A stretch of DNA of 64,000 bases, from the NCBI GenBank assembly GCA_963662715.1, contig OY759724.1, forward strand, positions 730,662 through 794,661, given 5' to 3'. The DNA comes from Candidatus Omnitrophota bacterium. GTDB lineage: Bacteria > Omnitrophota > Gorgyraeia > Zapsychrales > JANLHA01. The stretch's first letter is position 1; each line of letters opens with the position of its first letter. Below, one piece after another: positions 7,808 through 57,388 of this stretch. The notes under the pieces are model-generated. The model had not been told where the DNA came from, did no database searches, and saw only the letters and a program-made list of their open reading frames with translations. The position numbers and the translations under genes were made by a program.

Positions 7808-10800
7808 TTAATCCTCTTTTTCATCCACCTTATCAATGATACTTAACCGCGCTTCAGAGCTGTTCGCCCGGATCTCCGGCACATACATGGCATGGACCTG
7901 ATTAGGCATCCCGTGAAAATCTCCCGGGATTTCGGCACGGAGCTCATAGGTGATCTTATGTTTTCCCTGCGGAAGTTCTGTAATAAAAAAGGCCGCTTTC
8001 TGGTCGCGGAATTCCTTATAAAGCCAGACCTGCCTGCCCTGGGCCTCCTCGTCTTCATCTAAAGTCACGGCATATCCGCTGCCGCTTTTTAACTCTGTCG
8101 CTTCAAAACCGGCGGGCTTGTAATCTTCCACAACCAGATATTCGTAATGATTTTTGGCTTCCAATTGGATCTCAACCCGCACCCGGTCCCCGCTCATTAA
8201 CCGGTCACCTATCTCCAGGGGCTGCCATTCGTCTTTATACCCCTTCAGCAATGTCTCTTTTTGCGACTGCCGGGAATACGTGCGTTTCACAAAGACCTCG
8301 TTTCCGGCAGGGGAAATATTTTCTTCCAGAGTGAAATATTTCAAATACCCGGACAGATATAAAGCCCCTTCCCCTTTCATGGCGACTGTCACCTGATTAG
8401 AACCGTTTTTCAGATACTCTTGCGGAACGGTAATGTTACGGTTATAAGTAAACAGGTTCGCCCGGCTGACATGCCCTTTCGTTAAGGATTGACCGTTGAC
8501 AAACACTTCATAATCAAAATCCGGCGTTAGCTCCAACGTCGTTTTTAAATAATCCGCCAAACCCAAAATAGCAACAGCCGTATCCCGGGTATTTTTCCAC
8601 CTTGCTCCCCGCCGGTTTAAGGCGAGCCATTTGACGGCTGACTCCAAATGAGGACTTTGCGGGTCAATGTTCGCCAGCGCTTTAATGACAAAGGCCGTCG
8701 CTTCAACCCCGCCTTCACTCCAGCGGTAATTTACGCCGGATTCTCCCCAATGAACCGTTCCGTTTTCCGGATCTTCCTGCATCCCGTTCACCAAATTCCG
8801 GGCCAAAACCCGGGCATTATCCAAACGGCCCCGCTGGAACTCAGATAAAGCAAACAAGGCCCGTGTATAGGGGTTAAGCTGATCCCGCATATCCCAAAGA
8901 CGCTGGCTTTGTTTTTCTTCATACCGGCTGTTGGACCTCGTCCCGGCCAAAGCATGCAGCATCCATGCCAGCATATCCGGATTATCCTCTTCCTCAACGA
9001 GTTCTTTCTGCAGGAAATTCACGGCCCGGGCAATCACTCCGCCTTCAATTTTTATTCCGGCCTGCTGGGCCAACGACAGCCCCCAGGTCACATAAGCCGT
9101 CATAAAACGGTTGCTGTCATCTTCTTTCCACCAACCCCAGCCGCCGTCCTCATGTTGAAACTCATATAATCTTTTAACGGCTTTCTCGGTAACGGCATTG
9201 AGCTGCTGCAGAGAGGCGTGCTGGGACATATGAGGATAAGCCGGGTCTCCCCGCGGCTCCATGACATCGCTGATATAGGCCGAAACTTCATCCCGGGAAA
9301 AGCCTAGTTGATGTAAAGTTTTGGCGACGATAACCGAGGGCAGGAAACGGCTCATGGTCTGCTCCACGCAGCCGTAAGGATAATTCGCAAGATACGGCAA
9401 AGCATCCAGCATGGCCGCGGCCATAGACGGCGACATCACGAGCTCTAAAGAGGTCGACTCTTTCATGCGCTCCGCAGGGACGTGCAGAACAAACTCGGCA
9501 CGATCTTCTTTATCCCCGGCGGATTTCAGGCTCAAGCTCTTGGCAATAAACTTCTCGATCCCGTGAGGAATGACCGGATAGACTTTTTTCATGGCGTCAG
9601 CCTCATCAGCGGCCTGGGCCATGACGGTTATATCGGCCTGGCCGGCCAAAGGCGCCGCACAAATCCAGTCTACCCGCTGCTCTCCTTGGGACGGGACTGT
9701 CACCCAGGCCTCAGGAGCGTCCATCACCTGCAAACCCTTGGCATCAAGACTCACTTTGATCTTCTGTTCCTGATCAGTATAATTATGAACATTGGCTGAA
9801 ATGGTGACTTTGTCCCGTTCGGTAAAAAAACGCGGAGCCTGCAAGCGGACAATCACGTCTTTGTTTGTCCTTACCTCATGAGTGATATTCCCTATTTTCG
9901 TTCCCCGTGTCATGGCACGCGCTGTCGTCTGCCAGGTCGTCAGCGAATCAGGAAAACGGGCTTTTATCTCCGCCCGGCCGTCTTCATTCGTCATCAACAC
10001 CGGCTGCCAAAATACCGTTGAACGGAAATCAGCCCTCACTTCAGGAGTCGCAAGACCGGCATCATCGCCCAGAACCGCCCCTATTTCGTCCATCTCCATC
10101 AAGGCTTCTTCCCTGGGGGCCGAAAGAGCCGGGCTGGCCAGACCTTTCATTTTGCCGACCACCGCTCTGCTGGATTTAACCTCCATGTCCGACATTTCTT
10201 TGCTGAGCTCACCGGCGACTCCTTCCCCGAACACCATCCCCCCGCTCGCGGCATCAAGCGTTTGAACCTGGACGCTGTAATCTAAACGGTGTTCGTTTTT
10301 CTTGTCCGCATCTTTTATCAAGCTCCTCCGGAAACGTTCATCTTCCGTGATAATCTGTCCGTTCTCATCCCGGACGAGCAGCTGGTAACGTTTTTGGTTA
10401 AAACTCGTCTGGGTCTGCACGGACAGCTGTCTTTTTTCCCCGAAGAAAAATTCCCGGATATCCTTGGCATATTCACTCTGGATATAAAAAACGCTCTTGT
10501 CCACCATGCCTAAAGCCACTTCAGCCACAACAGGCTGCCCTTTATGATCCGTCACTTCTACTTCAAAGGCCCCTTCTTCGCGAGGGCCATAGGATTCCTT
10601 ATCTGCTATAATCTTAACATTAAGGAATTTCTCCTCCGGAGGAACGACAATCGGCAGAGAATACATCTTTAACTGATAATGGTCCGCAGAAACAGCATTA
10701 AAAAACATATTGGGGATAAAATAATCCTGAACGGGGACCTCGATCAGCTTAACCGGCCCGGTCAAATGCAGCAGTTGATAATTATGAATTTCCTGCGTCT

Positions 10801-15079: not shown

Positions 15080-18000
15080 TTAATTTAAACGGCTCAGGTT
15101 ATCCTGAACATTAGGAAGGAACTTCTCCTGAACATCTGCCTGAGGGAATAACGGACTTAAGGATGCTGCCGTGGAAGGATTCTCCGGGGATTCCGACATA
15201 CCTAAAAATAACGGAATATTTATGGGAGAAATTTGAATAATAACCGGCTGAAAACCTTCAATATTCATACTTTTCACCGGCTGCTGCAGTAAAGGCAACG
15301 GCACACCCTGCCCATCCCGTTTGATCTGCAAATCAAGGGCAGCGGGATTGAAATCAATACCACCAATGTCCTCTATCGCTGCGTTTTCCTCCAGACTTTG
15401 CATAATCGGGGAACTGCGATGTTCCCCATCGCTTCCTTCATCCAGAGGTTGCTGCTTGTCTTCGGGATAACCGGCGGCTAACTGAGTTTTATGCTGATCT
15501 TCGCTCTCAGCGAGTCTTGTCTCTCCTTCCCGCCTTTGCAGGTCCCCCCGCCAAAACTCTTTCAGGCGGTCCCAGCCATCCTTTTCCGCCTTTTCTATAG
15601 CCTCCAGAAGCGGCAAATATAATGTGCGGGAAGCTCTTGTTCTTTGCCCTTCACTTCGTAATTTGTCCTTTATATAATTTTTGGCAAAATCTTTATGCTG
15701 ATCGGATGCCAGCATCGCAAGAATAGCTTCTTTTTCAAGCTTATTGGCCTGAGGCCAATGATGAATCAGGGCGATAATATCTGCAATTCCTCCGTTGAAA
15801 TATGCCTGGGAAAGATAGTACTGCGGTGAATCGGGATTCATAACGATGATCGTTAAAGCGTTGTTGGCCATGATCCTCACCCAATAATCTCTCACAGTGC
15901 CGAAACTCCCGCCAAGATAGTAAGACGGATCGTTATGGGCCGCAATAATCAAACTGGGAATCGTTTCCCGGTGATCAGGGCCCAACTCAATAAAAAACTG
16001 GGCTGCCTTAATGCGCAGTTCAGGGGTATCACCTTGCAGCAAAACCTCGGAGGCCACCTGAGCGGCTTTTACGGTTTCCCCGATACCATAAAGCGCCTCG
16101 GCGGTTTTAACCCCTAATTCAGGATGATCTGCATACCAGTCATACAAGAAAGAGGCCATGGATTTCAGTCCCGGGCCCGCTTCCGCAATAATTTCATAAG
16201 CCCTCTTCTGAACTTCATCTGACCGATGAGTGACGGCTTTCCTCAGGCCGGCCTCAATACTGTTTGCCCCGGCCACAACATCAAGGAACTTTTCATCCGA
16301 AGGAGCCAAGGCCCGGAACATCCCGGCAACGTCACTTTCTTCATAATAACCGAAATCAATCAAGGCTAAAACGAGGCTCCTGCAATTGGCCCCTTTTTTA
16401 AAGTTCCGGAACCGGTTCAAGAGGACCGGCCCCGCTTCGGTAAACCTGGTGACCCGTAAAGCATCATGCAGTTTCTTACGGAGGAAATCGTCATTGTATA
16501 TCCACTTGCTATAAATATTAAAAACATTTGGGCCGACGGCAGCGCCCTGGGAAGCCATATCGGCATAAGCAATGATAATTTCCTCTCCAAAACTACGCCG
16601 CATAAAAGAATCCTGCAGGAATTCGTCCAAAGTCGCTGTAATCTCATCATTAGCCAAACCGATTCTGCCCAATGCCAAAATCATATCACTGTAGTCGCTG
16701 TCATTAATATAGCGCAATCCCGGACGAGGCGCTTTCCAGCTGTCGGCATTATCTTTTAATTTCTCCTTTAACCTCGCGATCAGAAACGGAACAGCTTTTT
16801 GAGCATATTCTTGTTCTCCCATATAGGAAAATGTCAGGGCCGCCCCGAGGGCGATCTCGGGATCAGAGTGATCCAGGGCCTCCTCTAAAACAGGAGAGAC
16901 ATCGGCAGGAGCATAAGACATGAAAACAGTAAAAATTTTGTCAAAGGTGTCCTCATTCGCCCGATAGAGAAAATCTTTGGATATATATTGCCTGAAATGG
17001 TCCTTTTTAGCTTCTTCGCTATAATGGCTCAGCAACTGTGTCATGCTCTGGCTATTCATCCAGCCCTCTCCGCTAATCCGGATACGCAGCTGCATATTTC
17101 CCATAAGCTGCTGAGCAACAGACAAATCCTCTGGCAAGGCCCTGTCCTGCCCCTCAGCCATAAAGGCCCGTCGCTTCTGGCTGTAATAAATAGCGATTTC
17201 GGCAGGCCACTGCGTCTCTGACAACCGCTCGTCAGCCTCAACGTAATAAAGATTATCGGCTTGCTGAGGATTATAAAGGGCCTCCAATATTCCATAAGCT
17301 TCATTACGGACCGCGAAGTTTTCGTCCAATAACGTTATCAGCATCATGTCCGTCAGTTCTTTTTTGTGGTCACTCCTTAAAGAAACCGGGAAATTCAGCC
17401 GGACACGGATAGATTCCAGGGTGATTCTGCGTATATCAGGATCAGGATGTCTTAAGTTACGGTAATCAAAATATGTGTCTTTCTCCGAAGCTTCTTCTGT
17501 GCCGGAGTCTTTTGCTTTTGCTTCAACAGTTCTGCTCTGTATACCGGGTTCTAATGTAATATCAAAGTTTTTCTTCAAATAATCCGCCACTCTTTGATCA
17601 TAATGCACCCGCAGTTTTCTTAACGCCTCACTTTTCATGCCGGTCACGTCGCCGGAAAAAATATGATGCCACAGGGGAATCGCGGCAAAGGGGTCAATGG
17701 TGGCCGAAGCGGAAATAATACTTTTTTTAATTTTAAAAGATTTTACCCTGCCGTAGATTTCTTTTAACAACGGCAAGGATTGGCTCGCACCGCTCCCGAT
17801 CCGTTCCAGAGTGTTGATAGGATCGACAATTTGTCTGACTTCAAAATCCGCCCGCGTAGGGAAAAAAATTCTTTTGGAACGGGTTTCCTTGTCCAGATAT
17901 GCCATCAGGGACGGGACAGATGCTTCACCGATAGCGACTAAAGCGTCGCTTGGGTCATAAACAAGAACCAGATTCGGAGTCGCATAACTGTCATATAAAT

Positions 18001-19741
18001 CAACTAATTGGGGGACCGCCATCTCGGCCTCAGGCCCGATATCCTCAATAACATGCAGAAGGGGCGTCACAACATTCCGCCAGGTGAAGAGCTGGGAAAT
18101 CTCTAAATATTCGAACATCTCCTCAAGAATATCCTGCCTGACAGGACGAATCCGTCCCAATAAATAAATGGCTTTCTCCCTTTCGAAGCGCTCGTTGAAC
18201 CAAGGGCTTAACAATTTGCGTAACTGGGACACAGCCGGTTCTCCGATCTCTTCCAATCGGCGCAGCAAAACCAAATCCTGCAGCCAGTTTTCTCCTTTAA
18301 TCCCCTGAATCAGGTCATTGATCTCCTTTTCCTGGTCAGTATATTTCATCCTCACGATTTGAGTCGTATGAAAAAGCTGTGACTGGAAATCCTGGACAGC
18401 GTTCTGGGGCAGGGCGTCAGGCCCGGAGGAAAACACCCCTAACGCAGATAAAAGGATGGTCAAAGCTCTTTTCAGCCTTCCGGGTTTTGAGAATACATTA
18501 CGGCCGGCATTTTCCACCAGTGCTACCCTCACCCGGCGGTTCTTTCCTTTCTCCGACTCAGGCTGCGTGATCGCCGAACTCACGCGTCCCGGCAGCCGGC
18601 CCGGCTGGCCGCGCAAGACCTCCAGCTTGTCCACCGTCACAACCCCCACGCCCAACCCCCCGGAAAAATATTTCCGCGGTATCACCTGCTGCGTCGCTTC
18701 ATCGTAATCTTCCCGTATATAGTTGTAGACGCCTTGCTTGAACGCGTCCAGATACTGCTGGTATATCTTCTCTTTTATCTCCCTGTCCTCAACATCGATC
18801 CCCTTCACCCTGTTCCGGTCCATGTACACCTGGCCCAATAAACTGTCCCGCAAATTCTTCTTGTACCAGGTCGCCAGGATCATTGAGTTGTAGATCTGCC
18901 GCAAATTCGCGAACGTCTGCCCTTCATTCACTTCCTTCTCTATCGCCGGAAGGATAATATCCTTGACGATCTTTGAGGACAGTTCATTCAGCTCTTTGGC
19001 CTGCCCCTTTGACTGTTTGTGCAACCCCAGGTCTTTGCTCTGCAGATTATGCTCCAAGGCCAGATAATCCTCTTCCAGCATCACCTTCAAGTGCCGTTCC
19101 ACCACAAACGCGCTGCCCGCGTGCTCATAGACAACCGCCTTATCCGGCACGATCCATACCTTATTAAATGTGTTTACCGGGATATTCGTTGTGCCGTACA
19201 GCTCATAGGCCTTTTTATAGACTTTACTCCAGAACGCCTGGCCCAGTTCTTCTTCCGGATACATCAACGAAGCGGTGAGCTGTTTCAGCAGGTAATCCTG
19301 GGAGAGCATGTCCTTGCCCATTTCCGTAACGCCCAACCCTTCCGGGATGATCCGGTTGTTTTCATATGGCGATAAGTTGACCCACAGTTCGTCTTCAGGG
19401 ACCGTCAAAGCCGCCAGGAAATACTTGATCAGCCTCTGTGACTCGGCTTCAAAAGAGGCTCCTTTTAAATCCCTGTCTCCCGTATCAATAATGAAATCAA
19501 ACTGCAGAGGGTTGTCCGGATGGATGGTGAGCCCCCGCAGGATCGCCGGCGCGAATGTCTCGCTGATCGAAAGGATCGTCCCGGGCTGCGGCAGAGAGAA
19601 GACAGCGGCACGCTCTTCTTTGGCCCACCCCGGTGTCGGCATAAGGACGGACGACAATAAAAAGACCGCCGCCATACCCGCCGATAAAAAGCGGCGCGGG
19701 ATTGTTTTCAATTTATGATTTGTCGGCTTATGCCTATTCAT
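15080..19741 (-). CDS. giant secreted HEAT-repeat protein, paralog 1 (shared N-terminal ~380 aa domain + conserved C-terminal ~60 aa domain)
   Basis: 1553 aa; signal peptide (LSAGMAAVFLLSSVLMPTPGWA); N-domain nearly identical to gene at 19779..28091; central PBS-lyase/HEAT-like repeats; C-terminal GGIDFNPAALDLQIKRDGQGVPLPL...GFQPVIIQISPINIPL motif shared with two paralogs. Confidence 0.85.
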   Translation of the reverse strand: MNRHKPTNHKLKTIPRRFLSAGMAAVFLLSSVLMPTPGWAKEERAAVFSLPQPGTILSISETFAPAILRGLTIHPDNPLQFDFIIDTGDRDLKGASFEAESQRLIKYFLAALTVPEDELWVNLSPYENNRIIPEGLGVTEMGKDMLSQDYLLKQLTASLMYPEEELGQAFWSKVYKKAYELYGTTNIPVNTFNKVWIVPDKAVVYEHAGSAFVVERHLKVMLEEDYLALEHNLQSKDLGLHKQSKGQAKELNELSSKIVKDIILPAIEKEVNEGQTFANLRQIYNSMILATWYKKNLRDSLLGQVYMDRNRVKGIDVEDREIKEKIYQQYLDAFKQGVYNYIREDYDEATQQVIPRKYFSGGLGVGVVTVDKLEVLRGQPGRLPGRVSSAITQPESEKGKNRRVRVALVENAGRNVFSKPGRLKRALTILLSALGVFSSGPDALPQNAVQDFQSQLFHTTQIVRMKYTDQEKEINDLIQGIKGENWLQDLVLLRRLEEIGEPAVSQLRKLLSPWFNERFEREKAIYLLGRIRPVRQDILEEMFEYLEISQLFTWRNVVTPLLHVIEDIGPEAEMAVPQLVDLYDSYATPNLVLVYDPSDALVAIGEASVPSLMAYLDKETRSKRIFFPTRADFEVRQIVDPINTLERIGSGASQSLPLLKEIYGRVKSFKIKKSIISASATIDPFAAIPLWHHIFSGDVTGMKSEALRKLRVHYDQRVADYLKKNFDITLEPGIQSRTVEAKAKDSGTEEASEKDTYFDYRNLRHPDPDIRRITLESIRVRLNFPVSLRSDHKKELTDMMLITLLDENFAVRNEAYGILEALYNPQQADNLYYVEADERLSETQWPAEIAIYYSQKRRAFMAEGQDRALPEDLSVAQQLMGNMQLRIRISGEGWMNSQSMTQLLSHYSEEAKKDHFRQYISKDFLYRANEDTFDKIFTVFMSYAPADVSPVLEEALDHSDPEIALGAALTFSYMGEQEYAQKAVPFLIARLKEKLKDNADSWKAPRPGLRYINDSDYSDMILALGRIGLANDEITATLDEFLQDSFMRRSFGEEIIIAYADMASQGAAVGPNVFNIYSKWIYNDDFLRKKLHDALRVTRFTEAGPVLLNRFRNFKKGANCRSLVLALIDFGYYEESDVAGMFRALAPSDEKFLDVVAGANSIEAGLRKAVTHRSDEVQKRAYEIIAEAGPGLKSMASFLYDWYADHPELGVKTAEALYGIGETVKAAQVASEVLLQGDTPELRIKAAQFFIELGPDHRETIPSLIIAAHNDPSYYLGGSFGTVRDYWVRIMANNALTIIVMNPDSPQYYLSQAYFNGGIADIIALIHHWPQANKLEKEAILAMLASDQHKDFAKNYIKDKLRSEGQRTRASRTLYLPLLEAIEKAEKDGWDRLKEFWRGDLQRREGETRLAESEDQHKTQLAAGYPEDKQQPLDEGSDGEHRSSPIMQSLEENAAIEDIGGIDFNPAALDLQIKRDGQGVPLPLLQQPVKSMNIEGFQPVIIQISPINIPLFLGMSESPENPSTAASLSPLFPQADVQEKFLPNVQDNLSRLN
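18545..19697. repeat. direct repeat copy A (~1.15 kb, ~97% identical to 26911..28047) covering 5' coding region of giant paralog 1
   Basis: Visible nucleotide near-identity; identical antisense ORFs in track (18456..18707 vs 26776..27063; 19308..19718 vs 27664..28104). Confidence 0.85.
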
Positions 19742-19778
19742 TTCAATCTGATTCCATGTCTTCCAAAACTAAAATAAC

Positions 19779-22700
19779 TTAATTCAGCCAGCTGATATCT
19801 TTTTCACGGCCGGCATAAAATTTTTCCCGGCTGTCAGACGGTAAGGCTGACCGCCTTGTCGCCGAAGGAGGACTTTCTTCCGGCCCCTCCTCAGTTAAAC
19901 CTAACAATAAAGGAATATTCACCGGCGCGATGTTAATGATAACCGGCAAAAACCCGTCAATTCTCATATCACCCACCGGCTGCTGCGGCAAAGGCAGCGG
20001 CACGCCCTGGCCGTCCCGCTTGATCTGCAGATCAAGTGCGGCCGGGTTAAAGTCAATACCGCCTAACGGCGAAGAGGCCGGTTCAGGTTCTTTCCCCAGT
20101 TCATAGCGTTTAATCTCCTGCCGATAGTCCCTGGCCCTGTCCTGATAAAACCAGCGCTCGGACAAGACCACGGAATCCACGTCCACGTCTCCCCAATGTT
20201 CATAGCGAATATCTTCAATGGCTTTTAAAAGGATCTCCGGTTCATCTCCGGTTAAATCTTCAACAATCCAGCCAAAAGTCGCATGAGCGACAAACGGATC
20301 AAACTTTGGGCCCTTTTGCGTCATATCAAAAAATTGATCCTGCAGGCCCTTCACTTCATCCCGGGCATTGTCCGTCATTAACATCGGGATAAAAATGGCT
20401 TTGCCCTGAAACATGCCTATCCCCTGAGCCATGAATTTAAAGGCACCGACCCGCCCCGGGATAAGCTGATCAAGCACAGCCACGGTTTCCTCTGTCACTT
20501 GCTCTTTCTGCCGGGGATCAGTCGTAAAATATGTCACTGAAGCATACGGCAGCGAGGGCACATCCCAGGCGATCTTATCAATGATCGATTGGGGAAGACG
20601 CGCCTTAAGCGCTTCCTGCGCTTTGGCCATGATCGCCTCCGGCATATTAAAATGCAAGAGATGTTTTAATTCCTCCTCCATCATCCTTTGGTCTTTCTGC
20701 ACGGGCGTTCGTAAGGCCTCCTGCCACTTCTGTTCAAAGATATCCCAGCTGGCCTGATATTCCGGAAGGATGGCGACCGGAGAACTTGCAGTATCAAAAC
20801 TGTCAGTAATATTAATGACCTCGGCCTTATCTTTTTGATGTATTGCGCTTGATACATTTTCATTTAACCGTTTTGTCCATTCGGCATATTCTTCTTCATA
20901 CCCTTGTCTTGTCGCATTAGGTATTCTGTGCTCACCTATAACTTCAGTATCTCTTCCCCACGTTTGGTTTTCCGGGCCGGCACCTTCATTAGGATCCCAT
21001 AAGATTGGGAATACAAGTTCTTCTGGCTCTCTGGCAATACGATCCAGAAGGGCTTCCATGGCCCTTTTGTATAATTTTACTGCGGAAGCACCTCTATATC
21101 CCCGACCCCATAAAATATCAGAAATAATTTCGAGTCTCATATCAGGATATCTCCGGTGATGGGTGTCGATAAACTCCACGATTTCATCTTCTGTGACACC
21201 CCCTGTTCTTAAAATTTCTTCAAGAGCGACAAAAGTTTCCTTGTTCCTCAGAAAATCTTTGATCTCAAATAGAGAACGAAGGGTTTCTCTGTCTTCAACC
21301 TTCCCCAATGCTTGCATAGTCCATATTCTCGAACTCAATGGGGCCTCATAAAAACCTTCACTATATTGACTTGCTCTTAGATAAGCACCCGCCAATTCCG
21401 CCTCAGACACTTCTAATGTTTTTAATGCTTGATCCACTGCTTCTAAAAGGTCAATATCCGCCTCGGAAAACATTTTCAGCAATACCGGGACAGCCTTCTT
21501 TACGCGTAAATTTTCCAACACTTTAACAGCATTTAATTTTGCGGATTTCCCTTTTCCTTTCTCAAGGATACTTATGTAAGTGTCAATAAGATCTGAGAGG
21601 GCCACCCCCAATTTGTTCAAGGATGATTCCACCGCCTTTATCAACGGCTCGTCATCCTCATAAAGCAATCCTGTGAGAACTTCAATCGCCCCTTTATTAT
21701 CTAAATCAGCTGAATCTCCCAACAAATCTCCTAAAGTACGGACCGCCCTAAGCCTGGCGATTCCTTTTCCTTTCTGTGCCGCCATAATATAGGCCTTTAC
21801 TAATTTTTCTTTTGTTACGCCTAACTTTTCCAGGACTCCTTCAACGGCATTTAAAATCACTTTATTTTCTTCTGACAATAAATTCAATAAAGGTTCTGCC
21901 GCGTTTCCCTTATGGGAATCAGCAATAAAATCAAGAATACTCAGTCTCACAGAGTCGGGGACCTGATGGTTGGCAAGTATTTTATATAATACGTCATCTA
22001 TTCCTGCGGTATTCAACAAGACTGAAAGTATCGGTTCTTTCCTGTCGGAGTTTATTATCATCCCCGTTAAAATTTTCACGGCGGAGACCAAAGGAAGCTC
22101 TTTAGCTATTTCTTTTATTTGATCGTCACGGATATCTTCTCTAAGGACTACAAGAATCTCCTCTGCTTTATAGGCATGCGTTGTTTTAGGATTTTTAAGG
22201 ACTCTGATCAAATGCGGTATTATTTTAGCGCCATAACCTATCATTCTTTCCTTTGACAGTTTATTGTAATAATCATTACTATCAATTCTTAACAAATGGA
22301 CATTGCCTCGCATCGTATGAAGTCTCCAAAACTTGTATATCTTCCAAGCCGCTGTTAACGCTATCGCCCCGCCGATCGTGTACTCATTGATCAGTCCCGC
22401 CTCGGTCAAAGGCCGGGTGAAAGACAAATCGACAGTTTGTCCGTTTGCGACAGATAACAAACCGCCGTTTAAAACGCCGGCGAGGGTTATCGGCGAACTT
22501 TGCAATTCGGAATCAGCTGTCACCACCGGAGAAGAAACAGGACTGTCTGACGTACCGGTTTGCACCAATTCTATTCTTTCTGGAATAACGCTGACAAGTT
22601 CATCCCGTGCCGGCTCTATTACTTTTACTTGATCCCATGCCTCAACCCATCTCGTCTTTCTGGGCATTGTATAACCGGAAACATAGGAGACATCATCATA

Positions 22701-25700
22701 ATCCTCATATTCATCCAAATAGCCCTCATGATGAATCGTCTCGGTCACCGCCTCATGATGTTTGTGTTCCGTCTTTTCCGGCCGGTAATTCACCATAAAA
22801 TTATCACCGGATAAAACAATTTCTAATCCTTCGATGAAAAACGCGGCAACCTTATTCTTCGGCAATATCGCATTAAGACTCGCATAGGTTCGGTTGACGG
22901 CTAATGTTCGTGCATCGGTTAACCCATATATATTTGATATATGTATAAAGGCGTCTATAACACCTAAACTTGTTGCCTCGAACATAACATCATAAAGCGC
23001 ATCTAAAGCCTTGACGTCCGCCAGTTCCGCAAGTCCCCGGGCTATGCTTTCGGCATGATCTTTACTTCCCTGCAAGGCAGTGATAAGAGCCGTCACAAAC
23101 CGTCCCTTATCAACACCGGCATTGAGCAGATCCCGGCTGAATCCCGGTCGTGAAAAAAGTGTCAACGCTCTTTCCAAATTAATAACTTTTATAGCCTTGA
23201 TATTCAAATCTTCAAGATATTCATCAAGTCGGGACAGGCCAAACGCCCCTTCTTCATGCTGTTTTAAAATCCGCAAGTAATCCGCCAGCCCCGCCCGGGT
23301 ATTCAGGCCCAAAGACTGCAGGAAAGACAGCACGTCCGCCCTAATGATATAAAGGTCTTCTCCGTCCTTTTCCCTGGCCAGGATATCTTCACCTAAACGC
23401 ATATACCTGTCATCAGCCGTCTCTCTCAAGTATTCGGCCAATCTTCTTACCGCGTGTCTCTTAAGGTTATAACCGGCGCCCGGATACGGCTGATCAACCC
23501 ACTCTACAAGTATGCCTGCAAAACTCTCCTCATCTCTCATTCGTATAATATCCAACAGTTCCGCCTCTAAAACTCTCATCTGTCCAGGAGTCGGAGATCT
23601 CAGATTTCTTGCCCACTGGATATATGTTTGAAGGTCTCCCTGAACGCCGAACCGCTCCAAAGCAAGCATAAATAAGACACGGTTTTCCGGCGTAACAGCT
23701 TCATTCAAACGCGATTCCAGAAGCGGGACAGCCGTCTTTCTGTTGAGTCCGGCTGTTATTTGAATAGCCGCGTCACGGTCAACAGCATTAGTGCTCCTTA
23801 ACAGGGATTCCAGGCTCCCCAACCTTCTCTTTCTTATAACAGTATCCGTTATTTGGGCAACCACCGCCGGTTCTGACAACAATCGATACAAGTCCTTTTT
23901 GTCGAGACTTTTTACCCGTCTTAATCTTTCGCCCTCGGGCGCCGGCTGCACTTCTTCGATGTCTTTAAAAGCTCCCGGCATACGGTTCAATGTCCTTATG
24001 ATCCGTCCATAATCTTCTCTGGTCGAGCAACCCAATGATTGCAACATTTCATCCGCCGCTTCCCTGATAACGACAATTTCCGCTGATTGTTCTCCCTCGC
24101 CAATGGCTCTATCCTTGCCGAACTTATCAAAGAGGGGCTGCCGGTTTTCTGCCTGAAGTTCAAACATCCTTCCCACGGCAAATATTCTCATTGCTTGATC
24201 AACGTCATCCCCCAACCATGCTGTTAAAAGGCTTTTATAGTTTTCCTGATCATATTCCTTTAAAACATCCATCCCCTTAAAGACCTGCTCAGGAATACGC
24301 CCTGCGGAAGCTTCATGCACTCCTTGCAGCCACTCCAATAAAGCCGGGACGTGCCCCTGTTGACCAAGCCGCGCTAAAATATAATTCAAGAGGACACGCA
24401 TGCCTGCATCGTTTTTTGCCTTTATCAATAAAGGTTGCAGAAGCGGGATCGCAGCCCGCATATTTAAATGGGCAATGAGGTTTAACGCAAAAACATGAAT
24501 ATCCCTGTCAGGATGATCCAGTAAGGACCTGATATGGTATAAAGTAAAGTCCCCTGCAAGACTGGTTAATGATTCCAATATGCTCTCTTTAACAGCGGCC
24601 CCCCGGTGATCTCTGTCTAATCTGAAGCGGAAATCATACAACAAAGAAATCAACGGCAAAATAGCCTGTTTGCTTTGATATATTCCCATACCTTTAATGG
24701 CGTCCATGATTTCAGAATAATTATCAGTTAAATCAAGGCCTTTCTTTGTCACACGGAGAAGAATTCTTCTATACACTTCAGCTTTTTCTTCATCACTCAA
24801 ATCATATTGCTCCAAGAGTTTTCTTTTGGCCTTATACCTTGTCCAGGAATAAGAACCATCCAAGCCATAAAACGCACCGCGCTTTGTTGTGTGCCGCCAT
24901 AATCCCCATACCGTCCCCAGCCCCCCGGCGGCTATCGCAGCCCCGATGGAATAAGCATTAATGAACTCTGCGCCGGTAACCGGAGAACTGACATACTTCT
25001 GCCCTTCCTCTAATAATGGAGAAACAAAAGACAGGTCGACTTGCTGTCCTTTAGCAATGGAAGTGAATCCATTCTTGAGCGCCCCGGCAATAGTCCCGGG
25101 GATAAAACCGGACAGGTTAATACTTGTGATTCCCGATGAAACGCGTTGAATATCCGCGGCTGTCATCTTTTCCACCGGGTAAACGTTGCCTTTCAAGTCG
25201 CGATAAAACGGGTTATCTCTTTCCACCGCTTCTTTAATGCGTTTCATCTGCCTGTTCAGGCTTCTGGGAACAAAGATGTCTCCCCGTCTCCCCGCCCACT
25301 CCGGCAGTAACTGTTCATTCATCAGGCGAAGGTTAAGAATAATACCATGCTCTTTCGCAACCTGATCAAAAAGCGAAAAAAACAACTCATAGCCAATGAG
25401 ATTGACAATATAACGAATTTTACGCATATCAAATTCATCTAATGAAACTGGTTCTCCAAAAGTCGAAAAACTGGTTTTTCGATCAATCAGCTCCCGCACT
25501 TCCGCAAACTCTATCCAGAATTGGCTTGATTCAACAAACTTACCAATTAAATCCTGAACCGTCTTCAAATAAGTGTTCATGTCCGAGGTCGAAGTTGCAA
25601 TGCGGTAAGTTTCGGATATGCCGGATTCTTCCAGCTTTTCTTTAACACGCGCTCCCAATGCCTGATAAAAATCTCGGCGGGCCTGCTCCAGCCTCCGGGT

Positions 25701-28091
25701 TTCTTCTCTTGTCAACCGCACTTGACTTTGCCTGCCAAGAGAAGACGGTTCTGCAACTTTGGCAATAATGTTCAACTCAGGTATCTTTAGATCTTGTTCG
25801 GGCAAAATATTAACAGGAAGCATTTCTAAAGCGGGTTTATTTTGTTGGCTCTGATGATAATCGTCCAGGAGTTCCCGCGTCACTATCAAATAAAAATTCT
25901 GGTATTTATCCACCGCAATGGCCTGCACCGGATAACGTTTAAACCCGTCCGGACCTTGTGTATAAAAATAATCCTTAATCCCTTCTGCGGCATAATCTGT
26001 GGTTAAATCAGTAAAAGAAAAGATTATTTTTCGATCACTTAAATTAATCTCCGTAGCAGCTACCAGCTTTTTGTTCGTATCACGCACGCCTACTGTAAAC
26101 ATCAACTCCTTCATACCTAATTGCGACGTCTGCCAATGTATTGAAAGATATTTATTATTAAATTCGATTAATCCATACTGCCCCTGCGGGTCCTGCACGA
26201 CATTCACCCCTTGTTGTTTTTCCAATGCTTGGGCGAGCTGGGTGTAAAGATTCTTGACCTTCCCCTCTGCCGAAATCGCCGAGGAAGCATTGTCAGGTGG
26301 GATAGGAGTAGATATCGATATAACCGAAATTCTTTCCGGGATAACGACTTTTTCTTCATCCATTTTTTGTAGCATTAACGATCCGGTAACATATCCATCA
26401 GTATGATCCTCTCCTTCTCCGACAATTACATATCCAGGAGGGATAGAAGATCGGTCCACGGTTTCACCATTGCTAATGGCGGCAGATCCATAACTTATTC
26501 TTTCCCCGGGAATATATTGTATTTCTTCTTTTTCAGGAATATACTCAACTTTAAAATCATTCCCTCCTTTTCTGATCTTCCAGGCCTCATGAAGATGCCT
26601 TAAAACTTCGTCATCAGCTTTTAATTTTGTCGATTTTCCTTCCAGCACTTGTTGAACTCTTCCCCTCAAATCCTCCTCAACTTGAAAAAGATTTATGACG
26701 ATAGGATCATCTTTAGCTGTTAATTTCAAGTTAGATAATGCTGTGTTAACTCTTTGAATATTCGAACTCCCAAGCTTGAATAAATTCCAGCTAATATATA
26801 ACCGCTTTAATATCGGGGAAGAACTCCCTTCTGTTGGGGATAAATCATCCAACCCTTTATCTGCATTCTCAACCAGCTCGATGCTCACCCGTCTGTCCTT
26901 ACCCTTCGTCGACTCAGGCTGCGTGATCGCCGAACTCACGCGTCCCGGCAGCCGGCCCGGCTGGCCGCGCAAGACCTCCAGTTTGTCCACCGTCACAACG
27001 CCTACGCCCAACCCCCCGGAAAAATATTTCCGCGGTATCACCTGCTGCGTCGCTTCATCGTAATCTTCCCGTATATAGTTGTAGACGCCTTGCTTGAACG
27101 CGTCCAGATACTGCTGGTATATCTTCTCCTTTATCTCTTTGTCTTCAACATCGATCCCCTTCACCTTGTTCCGGTCCATGTACACCTGGCCCAATAAACT
27201 GTCCCGCAAATTCTTCTTGTACCAGGTCGCCAGGATCATTGAGTTGTAGATCTGCCGCAAGTTCGCGAACGTCTGCCCTTCATTCACTTCCTTCTCTATC
27301 GCCGGAAGGATAATATCCTTGACGATCTTTGAGGACAGTTCATTCAGCTCCTTGGCCTGCCCTTCTGACTGTTTGTGCAACCCCAGGTCTTTGCTCTGCA
27401 GATTGTGCTCTAACGCCAGATAATCCTCTTCCAGCATCACCTTCAAGTGCCGTTCCACCACAAACGCGCTGCCCTCATGCTCATAGACAACCGCCTTATC
27501 CGGCACGATCCATACCTTATTAAATGTGTTTACCGGGATGTTTGTCGTGCCGTACAGCTCATAGGCCTTTTTATAGACTTTATTCCAGAACGCCTGGCCC
27601 AGGTCCTCTTCCGGATACATCAACGAAGCGGTGAGCTGTTTCAGCAGGTAATCCTGGGAGAGCATGTCCTTGCCCATTTCCGTAACGCCCAACCCTTCGG
27701 GGATGATCCGGTTGTTTTCATATGGCGATAAGTTGACCCACAGTTCATCTTCGGGGACCGTCAAAGCCGCCAGGAAATACTTGATCAGCCTCTGCGACTC
27801 GGCTTCAAAAGAGGCTCCTTTTAAATCCTTGTCTCCCGTATCAATAATGAAATCAAACTGCAGAGGGTTGTCCGGATGGATGGTGAGCCCCCGCAGGATC
27901 GCCGGGGCAAATGTCTCGCTGATCTTAAGGATCCTCCCCGGCTGCGGCAGGGAGAAGACAGCAGCCCGCTCTTCTTTGGCCCACCCCGGTGTCGGTATAA
28001 GGACAGACGACAATAAAAAGACCGCGGCCATGCCGGCCGATAAAAGGCGGCGGAATATAATATTCGACTTTGTTATAAATAACTCAAACAT
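19779..28091 (-). CDS. giant secreted HEAT-repeat protein, paralog 2 (2770 aa)
   Basis: Same N-terminal domain and C-terminal domain as paralogs; many HEAT-like repeats; two internal duplicated Gly-rich hydrophobic segments; stop only 37 nt upstream of paralog 1 start (operon). Confidence 0.85.
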   Translation of the reverse strand: MFELFITKSNIIFRRLLSAGMAAVFLLSSVLIPTPGWAKEERAAVFSLPQPGRILKISETFAPAILRGLTIHPDNPLQFDFIIDTGDKDLKGASFEAESQRLIKYFLAALTVPEDELWVNLSPYENNRIIPEGLGVTEMGKDMLSQDYLLKQLTASLMYPEEDLGQAFWNKVYKKAYELYGTTNIPVNTFNKVWIVPDKAVVYEHEGSAFVVERHLKVMLEEDYLALEHNLQSKDLGLHKQSEGQAKELNELSSKIVKDIILPAIEKEVNEGQTFANLRQIYNSMILATWYKKNLRDSLLGQVYMDRNKVKGIDVEDKEIKEKIYQQYLDAFKQGVYNYIREDYDEATQQVIPRKYFSGGLGVGVVTVDKLEVLRGQPGRLPGRVSSAITQPESTKGKDRRVSIELVENADKGLDDLSPTEGSSSPILKRLYISWNLFKLGSSNIQRVNTALSNLKLTAKDDPIVINLFQVEEDLRGRVQQVLEGKSTKLKADDEVLRHLHEAWKIRKGGNDFKVEYIPEKEEIQYIPGERISYGSAAISNGETVDRSSIPPGYVIVGEGEDHTDGYVTGSLMLQKMDEEKVVIPERISVISISTPIPPDNASSAISAEGKVKNLYTQLAQALEKQQGVNVVQDPQGQYGLIEFNNKYLSIHWQTSQLGMKELMFTVGVRDTNKKLVAATEINLSDRKIIFSFTDLTTDYAAEGIKDYFYTQGPDGFKRYPVQAIAVDKYQNFYLIVTRELLDDYHQSQQNKPALEMLPVNILPEQDLKIPELNIIAKVAEPSSLGRQSQVRLTREETRRLEQARRDFYQALGARVKEKLEESGISETYRIATSTSDMNTYLKTVQDLIGKFVESSQFWIEFAEVRELIDRKTSFSTFGEPVSLDEFDMRKIRYIVNLIGYELFFSLFDQVAKEHGIILNLRLMNEQLLPEWAGRRGDIFVPRSLNRQMKRIKEAVERDNPFYRDLKGNVYPVEKMTAADIQRVSSGITSINLSGFIPGTIAGALKNGFTSIAKGQQVDLSFVSPLLEEGQKYVSSPVTGAEFINAYSIGAAIAAGGLGTVWGLWRHTTKRGAFYGLDGSYSWTRYKAKRKLLEQYDLSDEEKAEVYRRILLRVTKKGLDLTDNYSEIMDAIKGMGIYQSKQAILPLISLLYDFRFRLDRDHRGAAVKESILESLTSLAGDFTLYHIRSLLDHPDRDIHVFALNLIAHLNMRAAIPLLQPLLIKAKNDAGMRVLLNYILARLGQQGHVPALLEWLQGVHEASAGRIPEQVFKGMDVLKEYDQENYKSLLTAWLGDDVDQAMRIFAVGRMFELQAENRQPLFDKFGKDRAIGEGEQSAEIVVIREAADEMLQSLGCSTREDYGRIIRTLNRMPGAFKDIEEVQPAPEGERLRRVKSLDKKDLYRLLSEPAVVAQITDTVIRKRRLGSLESLLRSTNAVDRDAAIQITAGLNRKTAVPLLESRLNEAVTPENRVLFMLALERFGVQGDLQTYIQWARNLRSPTPGQMRVLEAELLDIIRMRDEESFAGILVEWVDQPYPGAGYNLKRHAVRRLAEYLRETADDRYMRLGEDILAREKDGEDLYIIRADVLSFLQSLGLNTRAGLADYLRILKQHEEGAFGLSRLDEYLEDLNIKAIKVINLERALTLFSRPGFSRDLLNAGVDKGRFVTALITALQGSKDHAESIARGLAELADVKALDALYDVMFEATSLGVIDAFIHISNIYGLTDARTLAVNRTYASLNAILPKNKVAAFFIEGLEIVLSGDNFMVNYRPEKTEHKHHEAVTETIHHEGYLDEYEDYDDVSYVSGYTMPRKTRWVEAWDQVKVIEPARDELVSVIPERIELVQTGTSDSPVSSPVVTADSELQSSPITLAGVLNGGLLSVANGQTVDLSFTRPLTEAGLINEYTIGGAIALTAAWKIYKFWRLHTMRGNVHLLRIDSNDYYNKLSKERMIGYGAKIIPHLIRVLKNPKTTHAYKAEEILVVLREDIRDDQIKEIAKELPLVSAVKILTGMIINSDRKEPILSVLLNTAGIDDVLYKILANHQVPDSVRLSILDFIADSHKGNAAEPLLNLLSEENKVILNAVEGVLEKLGVTKEKLVKAYIMAAQKGKGIARLRAVRTLGDLLGDSADLDNKGAIEVLTGLLYEDDEPLIKAVESSLNKLGVALSDLIDTYISILEKGKGKSAKLNAVKVLENLRVKKAVPVLLKMFSEADIDLLEAVDQALKTLEVSEAELAGAYLRASQYSEGFYEAPLSSRIWTMQALGKVEDRETLRSLFEIKDFLRNKETFVALEEILRTGGVTEDEIVEFIDTHHRRYPDMRLEIISDILWGRGYRGASAVKLYKRAMEALLDRIAREPEELVFPILWDPNEGAGPENQTWGRDTEVIGEHRIPNATRQGYEEEYAEWTKRLNENVSSAIHQKDKAEVINITDSFDTASSPVAILPEYQASWDIFEQKWQEALRTPVQKDQRMMEEELKHLLHFNMPEAIMAKAQEALKARLPQSIIDKIAWDVPSLPYASVTYFTTDPRQKEQVTEETVAVLDQLIPGRVGAFKFMAQGIGMFQGKAIFIPMLMTDNARDEVKGLQDQFFDMTQKGPKFDPFVAHATFGWIVEDLTGDEPEILLKAIEDIRYEHWGDVDVDSVVLSERWFYQDRARDYRQEIKRYELGKEPEPASSPLGGIDFNPAALDLQIKRDGQGVPLPLPQQPVGDMRIDGFLPVIINIAPVNIPLLLGLTEEGPEESPPSATRRSALPSDSREKFYAGREKDISWLN
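26911..28047. repeat. direct repeat copy B covering 5' coding region of giant paralog 2
   Basis: See copy A. Confidence 0.85.
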
Positions 28092-42055: not shown

Positions 42056-42079
42056 ATATCCCCTCTCCTGTTTTCTTCC

Positions 42080-55562: not shown

Positions 55563-55576
55563 CTCGTTCCCTGCTG

Positions 55577-57259: not shown

Positions 57260-57388
57260 GGGGCTTGCGTCTCGTTTTGACAATGTCATTATTATACCGG
57301 CCCCGCCTTTCCGTGTCTAGCAGTCATCCCAAAACCTGTGCGGGACCGGCCCAAGCCCGGGAAGACAGAATAAAACCCCGGCCGCTAT

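What the first reader, a model, noticed from the sequence alone, without database searches (positions are those of the whole stretch)
15080..28091. Tandem pair of giant secreted HEAT-repeat proteins (1553 and 2770 aa) sharing unrecognised N- and C-terminal domains
Two co-directional genes separated by only 37 nt encode signal-peptide proteins built from (i) a shared N-terminal domain of about 380 aa, (ii) long arrays of PBS-lyase/HEAT-like repeats, and (iii) a shared C-terminal module of about 60 aa followed by an acidic variable tail. The N-terminal domain carries conserved blocks HPDNPLQFDF, WVNLSPYE, RIIPEGLG.TEMGKD, IPVNTFNKVWIVPDKAVVYE and QIYNSMILATWYKKNLR. The C-terminal module reads GGIDFNPAALDLQIKRDGQGVPLPLxQQPV...GFxPVIIxIxPxNIPL. 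I cannot assign either terminal domain to a known family. The conserved C-terminal module on otherwise divergent giant proteins looks like a dedicated secretion or anchoring signal, possibly a new type of C-terminal sorting domain. Together with a third paralog at 46650..51500, about 30% of this window encodes this family.
Basis: partly seen in the sequence, partly recalled or inferred. Interest (0 to 1): 0.82.

Follow-up and report, generated by a model that had tools for sequence, protein, structure and literature searches.

The report
Omnitrophota two-piece cargo-carrier protein family
The two giant genes are real and belong to a very large, undescribed protein family found only in Omnitrophota bacteria, in which an export signal, a 320-residue head domain with no known fold and a 55-residue tail piece predicted to clip back onto the head enclose almost any enzyme or repeat array, which points to a new way of exporting, anchoring or displaying proteins.

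Summary
Two co-directional minus-strand genes (1553 and 2770 aa, 37 nt apart) and a third paralog (1616 aa) share a signal peptide, an N-domain and a C-terminal module. Together they occupy 28% of the window.

The family is huge: 11,289 clusters at 50% identity, and every named source is an Omnitrophota MAG or a probable mis-bin. It has one fixed layout: signal peptide, N-domain ending in YFSGG, cargo of 14 to about 4,800 aa, a C-module starting GGIDLNP, and a short tail.

HEAT repeats are only one kind of cargo. Others are cytoplasmic-type enzymes such as enolase, PGK, UDPGP, radical SAM, kinases and glycosyltransferases.

The C-module is not a free-standing sorting tag. In every gene that could be read whole it accompanies the N-domain. 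It matches no sorting-domain model, while a neighbouring PEP-CTERM protein does. It has no conserved neighbour gene. In a cargo-less 438-aa member it is predicted to dock onto the N-domain (pTM 0.81).

Best reading: a new two-piece carrier unit that gives many exported paralogs one common handle for anchoring or assembly at the envelope. The function itself is inferred.

The parts
15080..19741 (-). Gene A, 1553 aa: signal peptide, N-domain, HEAT-like cargo, C-module, acidic tail
   Evidence: ORF list and translation. An identical protein is in the public collection as P0356, from a 3.36-Mb contig.
19622..19741 (-). A: predicted Sec signal peptide, aa 1-40 (..TPGWA|KEE)
   Evidence: Hydropathy peak 1.75. 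The n/h/c pattern is conserved across the family. By inspection only.
18656..19621 (-). A: N-domain, aa 41-362, ending RKYFSGG
   Evidence: Local family HMM, E = 6e-171. 1332 homologues found. Confident AlphaFold2 model of homologues.
15365..18655 (-). A: cargo, aa 363-1459, with HEAT-like repeats; SS[PA][ILV] linkers at aa 388 and 1443
   Evidence: HEAT_2 at 42.6 bits and in sub-segments. Linker positions.
15200..15364 (-). A: C-module, aa 1460-1514 (GGIDFNP..LDLQIKRDGQGVPLPL..GFQPVIIQISPINIPLFLG)
   Evidence: Local HMM, E = 4e-31. Profile search found 237 hits.
15083..15199 (-). A: 39-aa acidic, Ser/Pro-rich tail ending ..LSRLN
   Evidence: Translation. Tail statistics across the family.
19779..28091 (-). 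Gene B, 2770 aa: same layout with a 2316-aa cargo
   Evidence: Identical to P0352.
27978..28091 (-). B: predicted signal peptide, aa 1-38
   Evidence: Hydropathy peak 1.94; sequence.
27012..27977 (-). B: N-domain, aa 39-360
   Evidence: Local HMM, E = 4.7e-171.
20064..27011 (-). B: cargo, aa 361-2676. Unassigned regions, two blocks of HEAT-like repeats each preceded by a repeated 'NG..S.A.GQ.VDLSF' segment plus a hydrophobic segment (aa ~1000-1065 and ~1870-1905), and an unassigned last domain. SS[PA][ILV] linkers at aa 386, 424, 603, 1035, 1853, 1865, 2414, 2436 and 2673.
19899..20063 (-). B: C-module, aa 2677-2731
   Evidence: Local HMM, E = 1.7e-32.
19782..19898 (-). B: 39-aa acidic tail ending ..ISWLN
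   Evidence: The ..S.LN-COOH ending recurs in 17 of 87 family tails.
46650..51500 (-). Gene C, 1616 aa, third paralog. Signal peptide aa 1-47 (51360..51500), N-domain aa 48-369 (50394..51359), cargo aa 370-1535 (46896..50393) with weak alpha-glucan-phosphorylase similarity, C-module aa 1536-1591 (46728..46895), 25-aa acidic tail.
18507..19696 (-). A copy of the 1190-nt segment that is 95% identical between A and B (B copy at 26863..28052). It covers the signal peptide, the N-domain and about 50 further codons, then identity ends abruptly.
   Evidence: blastn and a 60-nt identity profile. Of 50 differing codons, 34 are synonymous and 16 non-synonymous.

Best explanation
A, B and C are members of a very large paralogous family, so far seen only in Omnitrophota, of Sec-exported 'bracketed-cargo' proteins. 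The layout is fixed: a signal peptide, a ~320-aa N-domain ending in YFSGG, a cargo insert of 14 to about 4,800 aa, a ~55-aa C-module starting GGIDLNP, and a short, often acidic tail.

Shown here: the layout, the tight coupling of N-domain and C-module, the diversity of the cargo, and the lack of any known relative by sequence or fold.

Predicted: the C-module folds back onto the N-domain, so the two form one structural unit of a new fold. The cargo is then a giant insertion between the last strand of the N-domain and the first strand of the C-module.

Inferred: this unit is a shared handle. After export it keeps or assembles the many paralogs at the cell envelope, as an anchoring or display scaffold, possibly by binding a common partner or each other. 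It thereby places HEAT scaffolds (A, B) and enzymes (C and many others) outside the cytoplasmic membrane. On this reading it is not a cleavable sorting tag. A and B arose, or were homogenised, by a recent duplication or gene conversion limited to the 5' 1.2 kb. That suggests recombination within the conserved N-domain is how new cargo is recruited.
For: Layout and coupling.
- In 1.3 Mb of 77 Omnitrophota loci plus the window, 71 of 81 N-domain ORFs that are complete at the 3' end finish in the C-module. Five more are split genes with the C-module ORF directly downstream.
- All 124 new cluster representatives carry both modules. In 197 of 197 proteins the C-module lies within 80 aa of the end. 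Cargo ranges from 14 to 4844 aa, and 163 of 197 cargos have no strongly hydrophobic segment.
- A natural cargo-less member exists (P0305, 438 aa).

Structure.
- AlphaFold2 on P0305 with 73 paired sequences gives mean pLDDT 80 and pTM 0.81. C-module residues 371-420 score pLDDT 76-92, and only the 17-aa linker is disordered.
- With a shallow alignment (6 sequences covering the C-module) the same module scored about 30.
- N and C columns co-vary: 8 N-C pairs are in the top 100 MI-APC scores, against 0 in five permuted controls, with best z 10.1 against 4.6 or less.

No known relative.
- Pfam, NCBIfam and PDB-sequence searches find nothing.

Family size and range.
- 11,289 clusters at 50% identity reach E <= 1e-3 and 6,879 reach E <= 1e-30.
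- At least 588 loci occur in GTDB species genomes. The 77 kept are labelled Omnitrophota or are probable mislabels, and several fall in the same MAG.
- Mean pairwise identity is 57% for the N-domain and 40% for the C-module, while cargos are unrelated.

Export. The signal-peptide pattern is conserved.

Not a classical tag.

Cargo diversity.
Against: - The docking rests on an AlphaFold2 summary. Coordinates could not be inspected, and whether docking is within one chain or between chains cannot be told.
- The covariation has hub columns (N162, N269, N62), which is typical of subfamily signal rather than specific contacts.
- Signal peptides were judged by eye and hydropathy only.
- Much of the cargo is cytoplasmic-type and cofactor-dependent (radical SAM with B12, PGK, enolase, kinases, response regulators). 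Such enzymes are hard to picture working outside the cytoplasm.
- No partner, receptor or machinery was identified, and no expression or localisation data were found.
- A few N-domain proteins lack the C-module (L011 431 aa, L071 404 aa, L032 483 aa, L008, L070; P0029 and P0057 end in a hydrophobic helix instead).
Confidence: 0.5

Rival explanations
1. One reading: the C-module is a new C-terminal sorting or secretion signal. An unknown dedicated enzyme or secretion system recognises it, perhaps cleaves it, and anchors or releases the protein. The N-domain has a separate role.
For: - The module always sits within 80 aa of the C-terminus.
- It combines a conserved polar motif with a hydrophobic stretch (hydropathy up to 2.0).
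- Tails often end in a conserved ..E(I/V)S.LN-COOH (17 of 87).
- It occurs on exported proteins with very different cargo.
Against: - It was never found without the N-domain wherever the gene could be read whole.
- It matches no sorting-domain HMM, whereas the neighbouring PEP-CTERM protein does.
- The hydrophobic stretch has three prolines and is followed by acidic residues, or by no tail at all (median tail 12 aa, minimum 0).
- No conserved neighbouring processing gene exists.
- AlphaFold2 places it on the N-domain with high confidence.
Confidence: 0.15
2. Polymer or lattice model, analogous to flagellin. The C-module of one molecule inserts into the N-domain of the next. N/C units then form the core of a filament or coat, and the cargos are displayed on its surface.
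For: - Conserved ends enclose a hypervariable insert that can be an enzyme, as in flagellins and flagellinolysins (PMC5595980).
- Paralogs keep N (57%) and C (40%) far more similar than their cargo, as expected if they must co-assemble.
- A cargo-less unit exists (P0305).
- The C-module is largely an extended hydrophobic segment packed on the N-domain.
- A surface 'coat' has been reported for Velamenicoccus (PMC10066038, as cited there).
Against: - No oligomer prediction could be run.
- The AlphaFold2 monomer model is satisfied by docking within one chain, across a 17-aa linker.
- There is no similarity to flagellin or pilin families.
Confidence: 0.15
3. Host-directed effectors. The N/C unit is a delivery or translocation module that carries cytoplasmic-type enzymes and repeat proteins into prey or host cells, where ATP, NAD and SAM are available.
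For: - The cargo repertoire resembles effector arsenals: ankyrin and HEAT repeats, Ser/Thr kinases, Macro, NUDIX, glycosyl- and methyltransferases, HAD phosphatases and GGDEF, together with central-metabolism enzymes.
- Omnitrophota are proposed predators or parasites (PMC10066038; bioRxiv 10.1101/2023.11.21.568195).
- The tails are acidic with a hydrophobic residue near position -3.
Against: - There is no link to any injection machinery.
- Sec signal peptides are unusual for one-step injected effectors.
- Nothing in the N/C unit resembles known translocation domains.
Confidence: 0.1
4. Not exported. The N-terminal helix and the hydrophobic C-segment are buried in, or tether, a cytoplasmic N/C unit. 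That unit scaffolds enzymes on the inner face of the membrane.
For: - The cargo is cytoplasmic-type, including radical SAM with B12.
- The N-terminal helix receives pLDDT 79-91 in model 2.
Against: - The canonical signal-peptide features are conserved: a basic n-region, a helix-breaking PP, small residues at -1 and -3, and Q at +1.
- 83% of cargos lack any hydrophobic segment that could bring them back across the membrane.
Confidence: 0.1

Closest known systems
Flagellins with inserted domains (flagellinolysins, giant flagellins; PMC5595980)
   Same: Conserved N- and C-terminal segments pack together into one structural unit and enclose a hypervariable insert. The insert ranges from almost nothing to large domains, including enzymes. 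Many variants share the same ends.
   Different: No sequence or fold similarity. The family here has Sec signal peptides. The N piece is 320 aa of mixed alpha/beta and the C piece only 55 aa. Polymerisation has not been shown.
C-terminal protein-sorting domains (PEP-CTERM/exosortase, LPXTG/sortase, GlyGly-CTERM, T9SS CTD)
   Same: A conserved module at the extreme C-terminus of signal-peptide proteins with unrelated passenger regions, partly hydrophobic.
   Different: No HMM match, while a positive control matched. No transmembrane helix plus basic cluster and no Ig-like CTD. Tightly paired with a 320-aa N-domain. No sorting enzyme nearby. Predicted to be a structural part of the mature protein.
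LapA/RTX-type giant adhesins (N-terminal retention module plus C-terminal type 1 secretion signal; bioRxiv 10.1101/198937)
   Same: Very large surface proteins with a conserved N-terminal module and a C-terminal signal, an acidic C-terminus and a variable middle.
   Different: Those proteins lack Sec signal peptides and carry RTX repeats and Big domains. None was found here, and here the two ends are predicted to bind each other.
Omnitrophota giant proteins ('Archaeovorins' and multi-enzyme giants; bioRxiv 10.1101/2023.11.21.568195 and 10.64898/2026.06.07.730766)
   Same: Same phylum. Signal peptides, HEAT_2 as a frequent domain, and cytoplasmic-type enzymes strung on predicted extracytoplasmic polypeptides.
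   Different: Those are proteins of more than 20,000-147,000 aa with many transmembrane helices. Term searches of these papers turned up no description of the N-domain/C-module pair. Members here are 0.4-5 kb-scale proteins, mostly without transmembrane segments. Homology to the giants was not tested.
BPI/PLUNC/latherin (TULIP-like lipid-binding folds)

Membership tests
Sortase/exosortase-type C-terminal sorting signals (LPXTG, PEP-CTERM, GlyGly-CTERM and relatives) | Match to the curated sorting-domain models (TIGR02595, TIGR01167, TIGR03370 and others) | tested here: not met
   NCBIfam at E <= 10 finds nothing in the C-terminal 99-113 aa of A, B or C. The same call detects PEP_CTERM in the neighbouring gene 51848..52669 at E = 1.3e-6.
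Sortase/exosortase-type C-terminal sorting signals | Three parts: a short signature motif, a transmembrane helix, then a cluster of basic residues at the very end | tested here: not met
   The hydrophobic stretch F.PVII.I.P..N.PLLLG holds three prolines. It is followed by a 25-39 aa acidic, Ser/Pro-rich tail in A, B and C, and by 0-63 aa elsewhere.
Sortase/exosortase-type C-terminal sorting signals | The tag occurs on proteins that otherwise share only a signal peptide | tested here: not met
   The C-module always accompanies the 320-aa N-domain.
Sortase/exosortase-type C-terminal sorting signals | A dedicated processing enzyme that co-occurs in the genome | tested here: inconclusive
   No conserved neighbour within +/-10 kb in 78 loci. 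Whole-genome co-occurrence could not be computed.
Type IX secretion C-terminal domain | An 80-100 aa Ig-like beta-sandwich CTD matching the Por_Secre_tail models | tested here: not met
   No Pfam or NCBIfam hit. The module is 55 aa and is modelled as two short strands, a short helix and an extended segment.
Type 1 secreted RTX/LapA-like adhesins | No Sec signal peptide, RTX nonapeptide repeats, a C-terminal uncleaved signal | tested here: not met
   Conserved Sec-type signal peptides. No RTX or Big-domain hits.
Type V autotransporters | A C-terminal (or N-terminal) beta-barrel translocator domain of 250 aa or more | tested here: not met
   No barrel-domain hit. The C-module plus tail is under 100 aa.
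Flagellin-like 'conserved ends, variable insert' architecture (works like, not member of) | N- and C-terminal segments form one unit, and the insert varies from near zero to very large | tested here: met
   Predicted docking. Cargo of 14-4844 aa. This is an analogy of architecture only: flagellin Pfam families do not match, and polymerisation was not tested.
HEAT-repeat proteins (cargo of A and B) | Pfam HEAT_2 above the gathering score | tested here: met
   A scores 42.6 bits and B 40.1 bits against a cut-off of 27.7. Several weak stretches are spread along both cargos. Paralog C does not match.
Omnitrophota giant proteins ('Archaeovorins') | ORFs longer than 20 kb with many transmembrane helices; homology of the N-terminal region | not tested
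   A, B and C are 1.5-2.8 k aa. No giant-protein sequence was compared. Term searches of the papers found no mention of these domains.

The most novel reading that the evidence does not exclude
The N-domain and C-module together are the signature of a phylum-wide, previously unrecognised system for protein display, assembly or delivery. A new-fold 'clasp' lets Omnitrophota export dozens of paralogs per genome, each carrying a different cytoplasmic-type enzyme or repeat scaffold. The clasp then tethers them to the cell surface, links them head-to-tail into a coat, or hands them to a host cell. If so, these ultra-small bacteria run part of their metabolism, or their attack on hosts, outside the cytoplasm.
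Probability: 0.3. Interest if true: 0.9.

Novelty: categorically new. Interest (0 to 1): 0.78.

Why it matters
Omnitrophota are widespread, uncultured, mostly ultra-small bacteria thought to live as predators or parasites. How their many odd exported and giant proteins are organised is an open question.

This family has at least 11,000 clusters at 50% identity, often sits in tandem, and fills 28% of this window. It provides a concrete, searchable handle: two short signatures (WVNLSPYE...YFSGG and GGIDLNP...PVIINI.P) that mark a whole class of exported proteins and define their cargo boundaries.

If the clasp model is right, three things follow. It is a new protein fold and a new principle for displaying or assembling enzymes outside the cell. 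It gives direct experimental entry points, such as expressing the 438-aa cargo-less member. And its apparent tolerance of inserts up to about 4,800 aa is of interest for protein engineering. It also sharpens the puzzle of why cofactor-dependent cytoplasmic enzymes carry export signals in this phylum.

Tried and rejected
- Mixed MAFFT alignments of N-only and C-only fragments with a full-length target misplaced the fragments (A3 and A4) and were dropped.
- AlphaFold2 with an alignment only 6 sequences deep over the C-module left that module unmodelled.
I therefore spent the third homologue search on a chimeric N+C profile to obtain allowed full-length members.
- The afdb50 fold library was unavailable.
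- Neighbour-gene clustering over 78 loci gave only generic response regulators, ABC ATPases and histidine kinases.
- The context of the cargo-less member P0305 showed no machinery.
- An exact look-up of A by the look-up of encoding contigs found nothing, although A and B are in the protein collection.
- PDB sequence searches with the cargo of C and the last domain of B found nothing. My guess of a 2H-phosphoesterase in B is therefore unsupported.
- The repeated 'VDLSF plus hydrophobic' segment of B was not found in other members.
- P0221, an apparent GyrA fusion, is most likely a chimeric short contig that shares the word IKRD.
- Weak Pfam and NCBIfam hits (DUF5095 at E = 0.015, Ribosomal_L21e, RalF) were dismissed as noise.
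- Term searches of Omnitrophota papers turned up no mention of the domains.
Full report
**1. What is in the window**

The region holds two minus-strand ORFs: A (15080..19741, 1553 aa) and B (19779..28091, 2770 aa), separated by 37 nt. A third related ORF, C, lies at 46650..51500 (1616 aa, TTG start). A six-frame motif scan finds the N-terminal blocks (WVNLSPYE, PVNTFNK...) and the C-terminal block (GGI[DN][FL]NP..LDLQIKRDG.GVPLPL..GF.PVII.I.P) only in these three genes.

- A and B are 94% identical over 407 aa and 95% over 1190 nt, without gaps. Identity then falls to background within about 60 nt.
- Their middle regions show no BLASTP similarity. Their last 96 aa are 59% identical.
- A and B versus C are 57% identical over 377 aa of the N region. 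The C-module of B is closer to that of C (77% over 56 aa) than to that of A.
- The three genes cover 28% of the window.

Each protein starts with a basic n-region, an 18-20 residue hydrophobic core and a ...PGWA|K or ...AYA|L site. I read these as Sec signal peptides, by inspection.

**2. Known-family searches**

- Pfam-A finds only HEAT_2 in A (42.6 bits) and B (40.1 bits), built from several weak stretches. In C it finds a sub-threshold phosphorylase match, and NCBIfam adds TIGR02094 at E = 2.8e-6.
- Nothing covers the N-domain or the C-module, even at E <= 10.
- As a positive control, the same NCBIfam call recognises the PEP-CTERM domain of the neighbouring gene 51848..52669.
- A profile of N+C finds no PDB sequence at E <= 10.

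**3. The family**

- The N-domain of A finds 1332 proteins at 54-69% identity for the best 120. Nearly all named ones come from Candidatus Omnitrophica/Omnitrophota MAGs, and many are cut at contig ends.
- A profile of the three C-modules finds 237 short proteins, mostly contig-end fragments.
The best 77 are all labelled Omnitrophota, 'uncultured Planctomycetales' or unclassified bacterium, and several come from the same MAG.
- An exhaustive HMMER search of 1.84 billion cluster representatives gives 11,289 hits at E <= 1e-3 and 6,879 at E <= 1e-30, with lengths up to 5312 aa.
- A and B themselves are in that collection, from a 3.36-Mb contig.

**4. One fixed architecture**

I built local HMMs for the two modules and ran them on all ORFs of the 77 loci plus the window (1.3 Mb).

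- Of 81 N-domain ORFs complete at the 3' end, 71 end in the C-module. Five more are split genes with the C-module ORF directly downstream.
- All 76 C-module ORFs not cut at the 5' end belong to N-domain genes.
- All 124 new representatives carry both modules. In 197 of 197 proteins the C-module lies within 80 aa of the C-terminus.
- Cargo length runs from 14 to 4844 aa, and 163 of 197 cargos contain no segment with Kyte-Doolittle hydropathy of 1.6 or more.
- An apparent stand-alone C-module on a long contig (P0124) is the last piece of a frameshifted gene. Its N-domain lies 7 kb upstream, with PGI and phosphoglucomutase cargo between. For a second one (P0168) no N-domain was found within 9 kb, on a 2x-coverage contig. 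That case remains unresolved.
- The N-domain always ends at ...PRKYFSGG, and the C-module starts at GGI(D/N)(L/F)N.
- The C-module comes in two flavours. One is ..LDLQIKRDGNGVPLPL..QP..M.I.GF.PVIINI.P..NLPLLLG, as in A, B and C. The other is ..NMNLQT....G.IKFHLDPA.L.QLQNAPGF.PVIINIQP..NL..FLG.
- Tails after the module are 0-63 aa (median 12). They are often acidic, and 17 of 87 end in ...S.LN-COOH, as A and B do.

**5. Cargo**

HEAT repeats are one option among many. Pfam on 32 + 36 full-length members, plus the precomputed annotations of 70 short members, shows the following:

- Central metabolism and sugar enzymes: enolase, phosphoglycerate kinase, UDP-glucose pyrophosphorylase (four members), glutamate dehydrogenase, RmlD, zinc alcohol dehydrogenase, CofD, HpcH aldolase, MaoC, ROK and PfkB kinases, GH130, GT2 glycosyltransferases.
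- Cofactor-dependent enzymes: radical SAM with a B12-binding domain, SAM methyltransferases, proline dehydrogenase.
- Signalling and modification domains: Ser/Thr kinases, GNAT, GGDEF, CheR, response-regulator receivers, HATPase_c, HAD, Metallophos, Macro, NUDIX.
- Peptidases M3 and M48.
- Repeat scaffolds: ankyrin and HEAT repeats.

These are cytoplasmic-type domains sitting behind conserved signal peptides. The recent preprints on giant Omnitrophota proteins note the same paradox. Term searches of those papers turned up no mention of this N/C pair.

**6. Structure**

After recovering 70 complete short members with a chimeric N+C profile, I modelled the cargo-less 438-aa member P0305 with 73 paired sequences.

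- Mean pLDDT was 80 and pTM 0.81.
- The C-module scored pLDDT 76-92. Only the 17-residue N-to-C linker, one internal loop and the signal-peptide junction were disordered.
- A pTM of 0.81 over the whole chain implies that the C-module is placed rigidly against the N-domain.

On 254 paired sequences, N and C columns co-vary beyond permuted controls: 8 N-C pairs in the top 100 against 0, and best z 10.1 against 4.6 or less. The signal concentrates on a few hub columns, so it may reflect subfamily co-inheritance rather than contacts.

**7. Genomic context**

Clustering all neighbouring ORFs of 78 loci finds no conserved partner. The most frequent neighbours are generic response regulators, ABC ATPases and histidine kinases, in at most 11 loci. 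The cargo-less member has no informative neighbours either. Family genes often sit in tandem, for example three in L022 and three in L050, like A and B here. The A/B pair shares only its 5' 1.2 kb at 95% identity. This suggests recent duplication or gene conversion confined to the conserved head, a plausible route for cargo exchange (inference).

**8. Interpretation**

Shown: a fixed layout of signal peptide, N-domain, cargo, C-module and tail; tight coupling of N and C; extreme cargo diversity; a phylum-restricted and very large family; no detectable relative in sequence or fold libraries.

Predicted: N and C form one structural unit, with the cargo as an insertion.

Inferred: the unit is a common handle that anchors or assembles exported paralogs at the envelope.

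The closest analogy in architecture is flagellin, whose conserved ends co-fold and polymerise around a variable, sometimes enzymatic, insert (PMC5595980). Membership is excluded. Alternatives that remain open are a head-to-tail polymer or coat, host-directed effectors, and a non-exported membrane-face scaffold.

**9. Verdict**

What is there is not just a pair of HEAT proteins. They are two members, plus a third nearby, of an undescribed Omnitrophota-wide family defined by a two-piece terminal unit of unknown fold. I rate it highly interesting. The architecture and novelty are solid; the mechanism is a reasoned inference that needs structural and proteomic tests.

Noticed in passing
window 15080..28091 and 46650..51500; also P0272, P0033, P0057, L003, L004, L063: A short motif SS[PA][ILV] (for example ASSPL, GSSSPI, VSSPV) marks module boundaries. 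It occurs just after the N-domain, before each internal block of B, and directly before the C-module. It is about 8 times more frequent in family proteins than in other ORFs (0.41 against 0.05 per 1000 aa) and is concentrated in some lineages. It could be a linker, a processing site or an O-glycosylation sequon; which is untested.
   Followed up: partly
window 18507..19696 and 26863..28052: The 5' 1.2 kb of A and B are 95% identical, with an abrupt end about 50 codons past the N-domain. Of 50 differing codons, 34 are synonymous and 16 non-synonymous. This suggests recent partial duplication or gene conversion among paralogs.
   Followed up: partly
window 20064..27011 (B, aa ~1000-1065 and ~1870-1905): B contains two copies of a segment 'G..NG..S.A.GQ.VDLSF..PL.E.G', each followed by a moderately hydrophobic 19-20 aa stretch and then a block of HEAT-like repeats. 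No other family member at hand has it. If both stretches span the membrane, the first HEAT block would be cytoplasmic.
   Followed up: partly
family-wide N-termini: The signal peptides are unusually alike in sequence (..[FY]R[LV][LV]S.F.A..F......PP.YAQ). That is more than generic Sec signals need, and hints at a dedicated recognition step or a structural role for this helix (pLDDT 79-91 in model 2).
   Followed up: no
P0176 and P0186 (124 aa; contig of 29.7 kb): In a close relative of this organism, a signal peptide nearly identical to that of B is fused directly to the second half of the C-module and the ..ISWLN tail. This is either a deletion derivative or a collapsed assembly.
   Followed up: no
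window 7808..13663 (-): A 1951-aa protein with a signal-peptide-like start and a GCVEQ thioester motif, resembling bacterial alpha-2-macroglobulin. Read from the translation only and not checked with an HMM.
   Followed up: no
window 51848..52669 (-): A 273-aa protein with a PEP-CTERM sorting domain lies immediately upstream of paralog C. The organism therefore also uses the exosortase system for other proteins. It served as a positive control.
   Followed up: yes
window 41057..45655 (-): A MoxR-type AAA+ ATPase (AAA_3) followed by a 1191-aa DUF58-containing protein, a Bat/MoxR-like pair between paralog C and the A/B pair.
   Followed up: no
window 53287..59179: A cluster of radical SAM genes: one with a SPASM domain (54231..55670), one with a B12-binding domain (57515..59179, + strand), plus unassigned ORFs. 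Possibly a peptide-modification locus.
   Followed up: no
P0029, P0057; L011, L071, L032: A minority of N-domain proteins (400-480 aa) lack the C-module. At least two of them (P0029, P0057) end instead in a hydrophobic, transmembrane-like helix, which may be an alternative way of anchoring the same head domain.
   Followed up: no
(source names): Some family fragments are deposited under Heimdallarchaeota, Pacearchaeota, Auribacterota, Deltaproteobacteria or 'uncultured Planctomycetales'. These are probably mis-binned Omnitrophota contigs, and the conserved N-domain may break assemblies, since many hits are 'partial' at contig ends.
   Followed up: no
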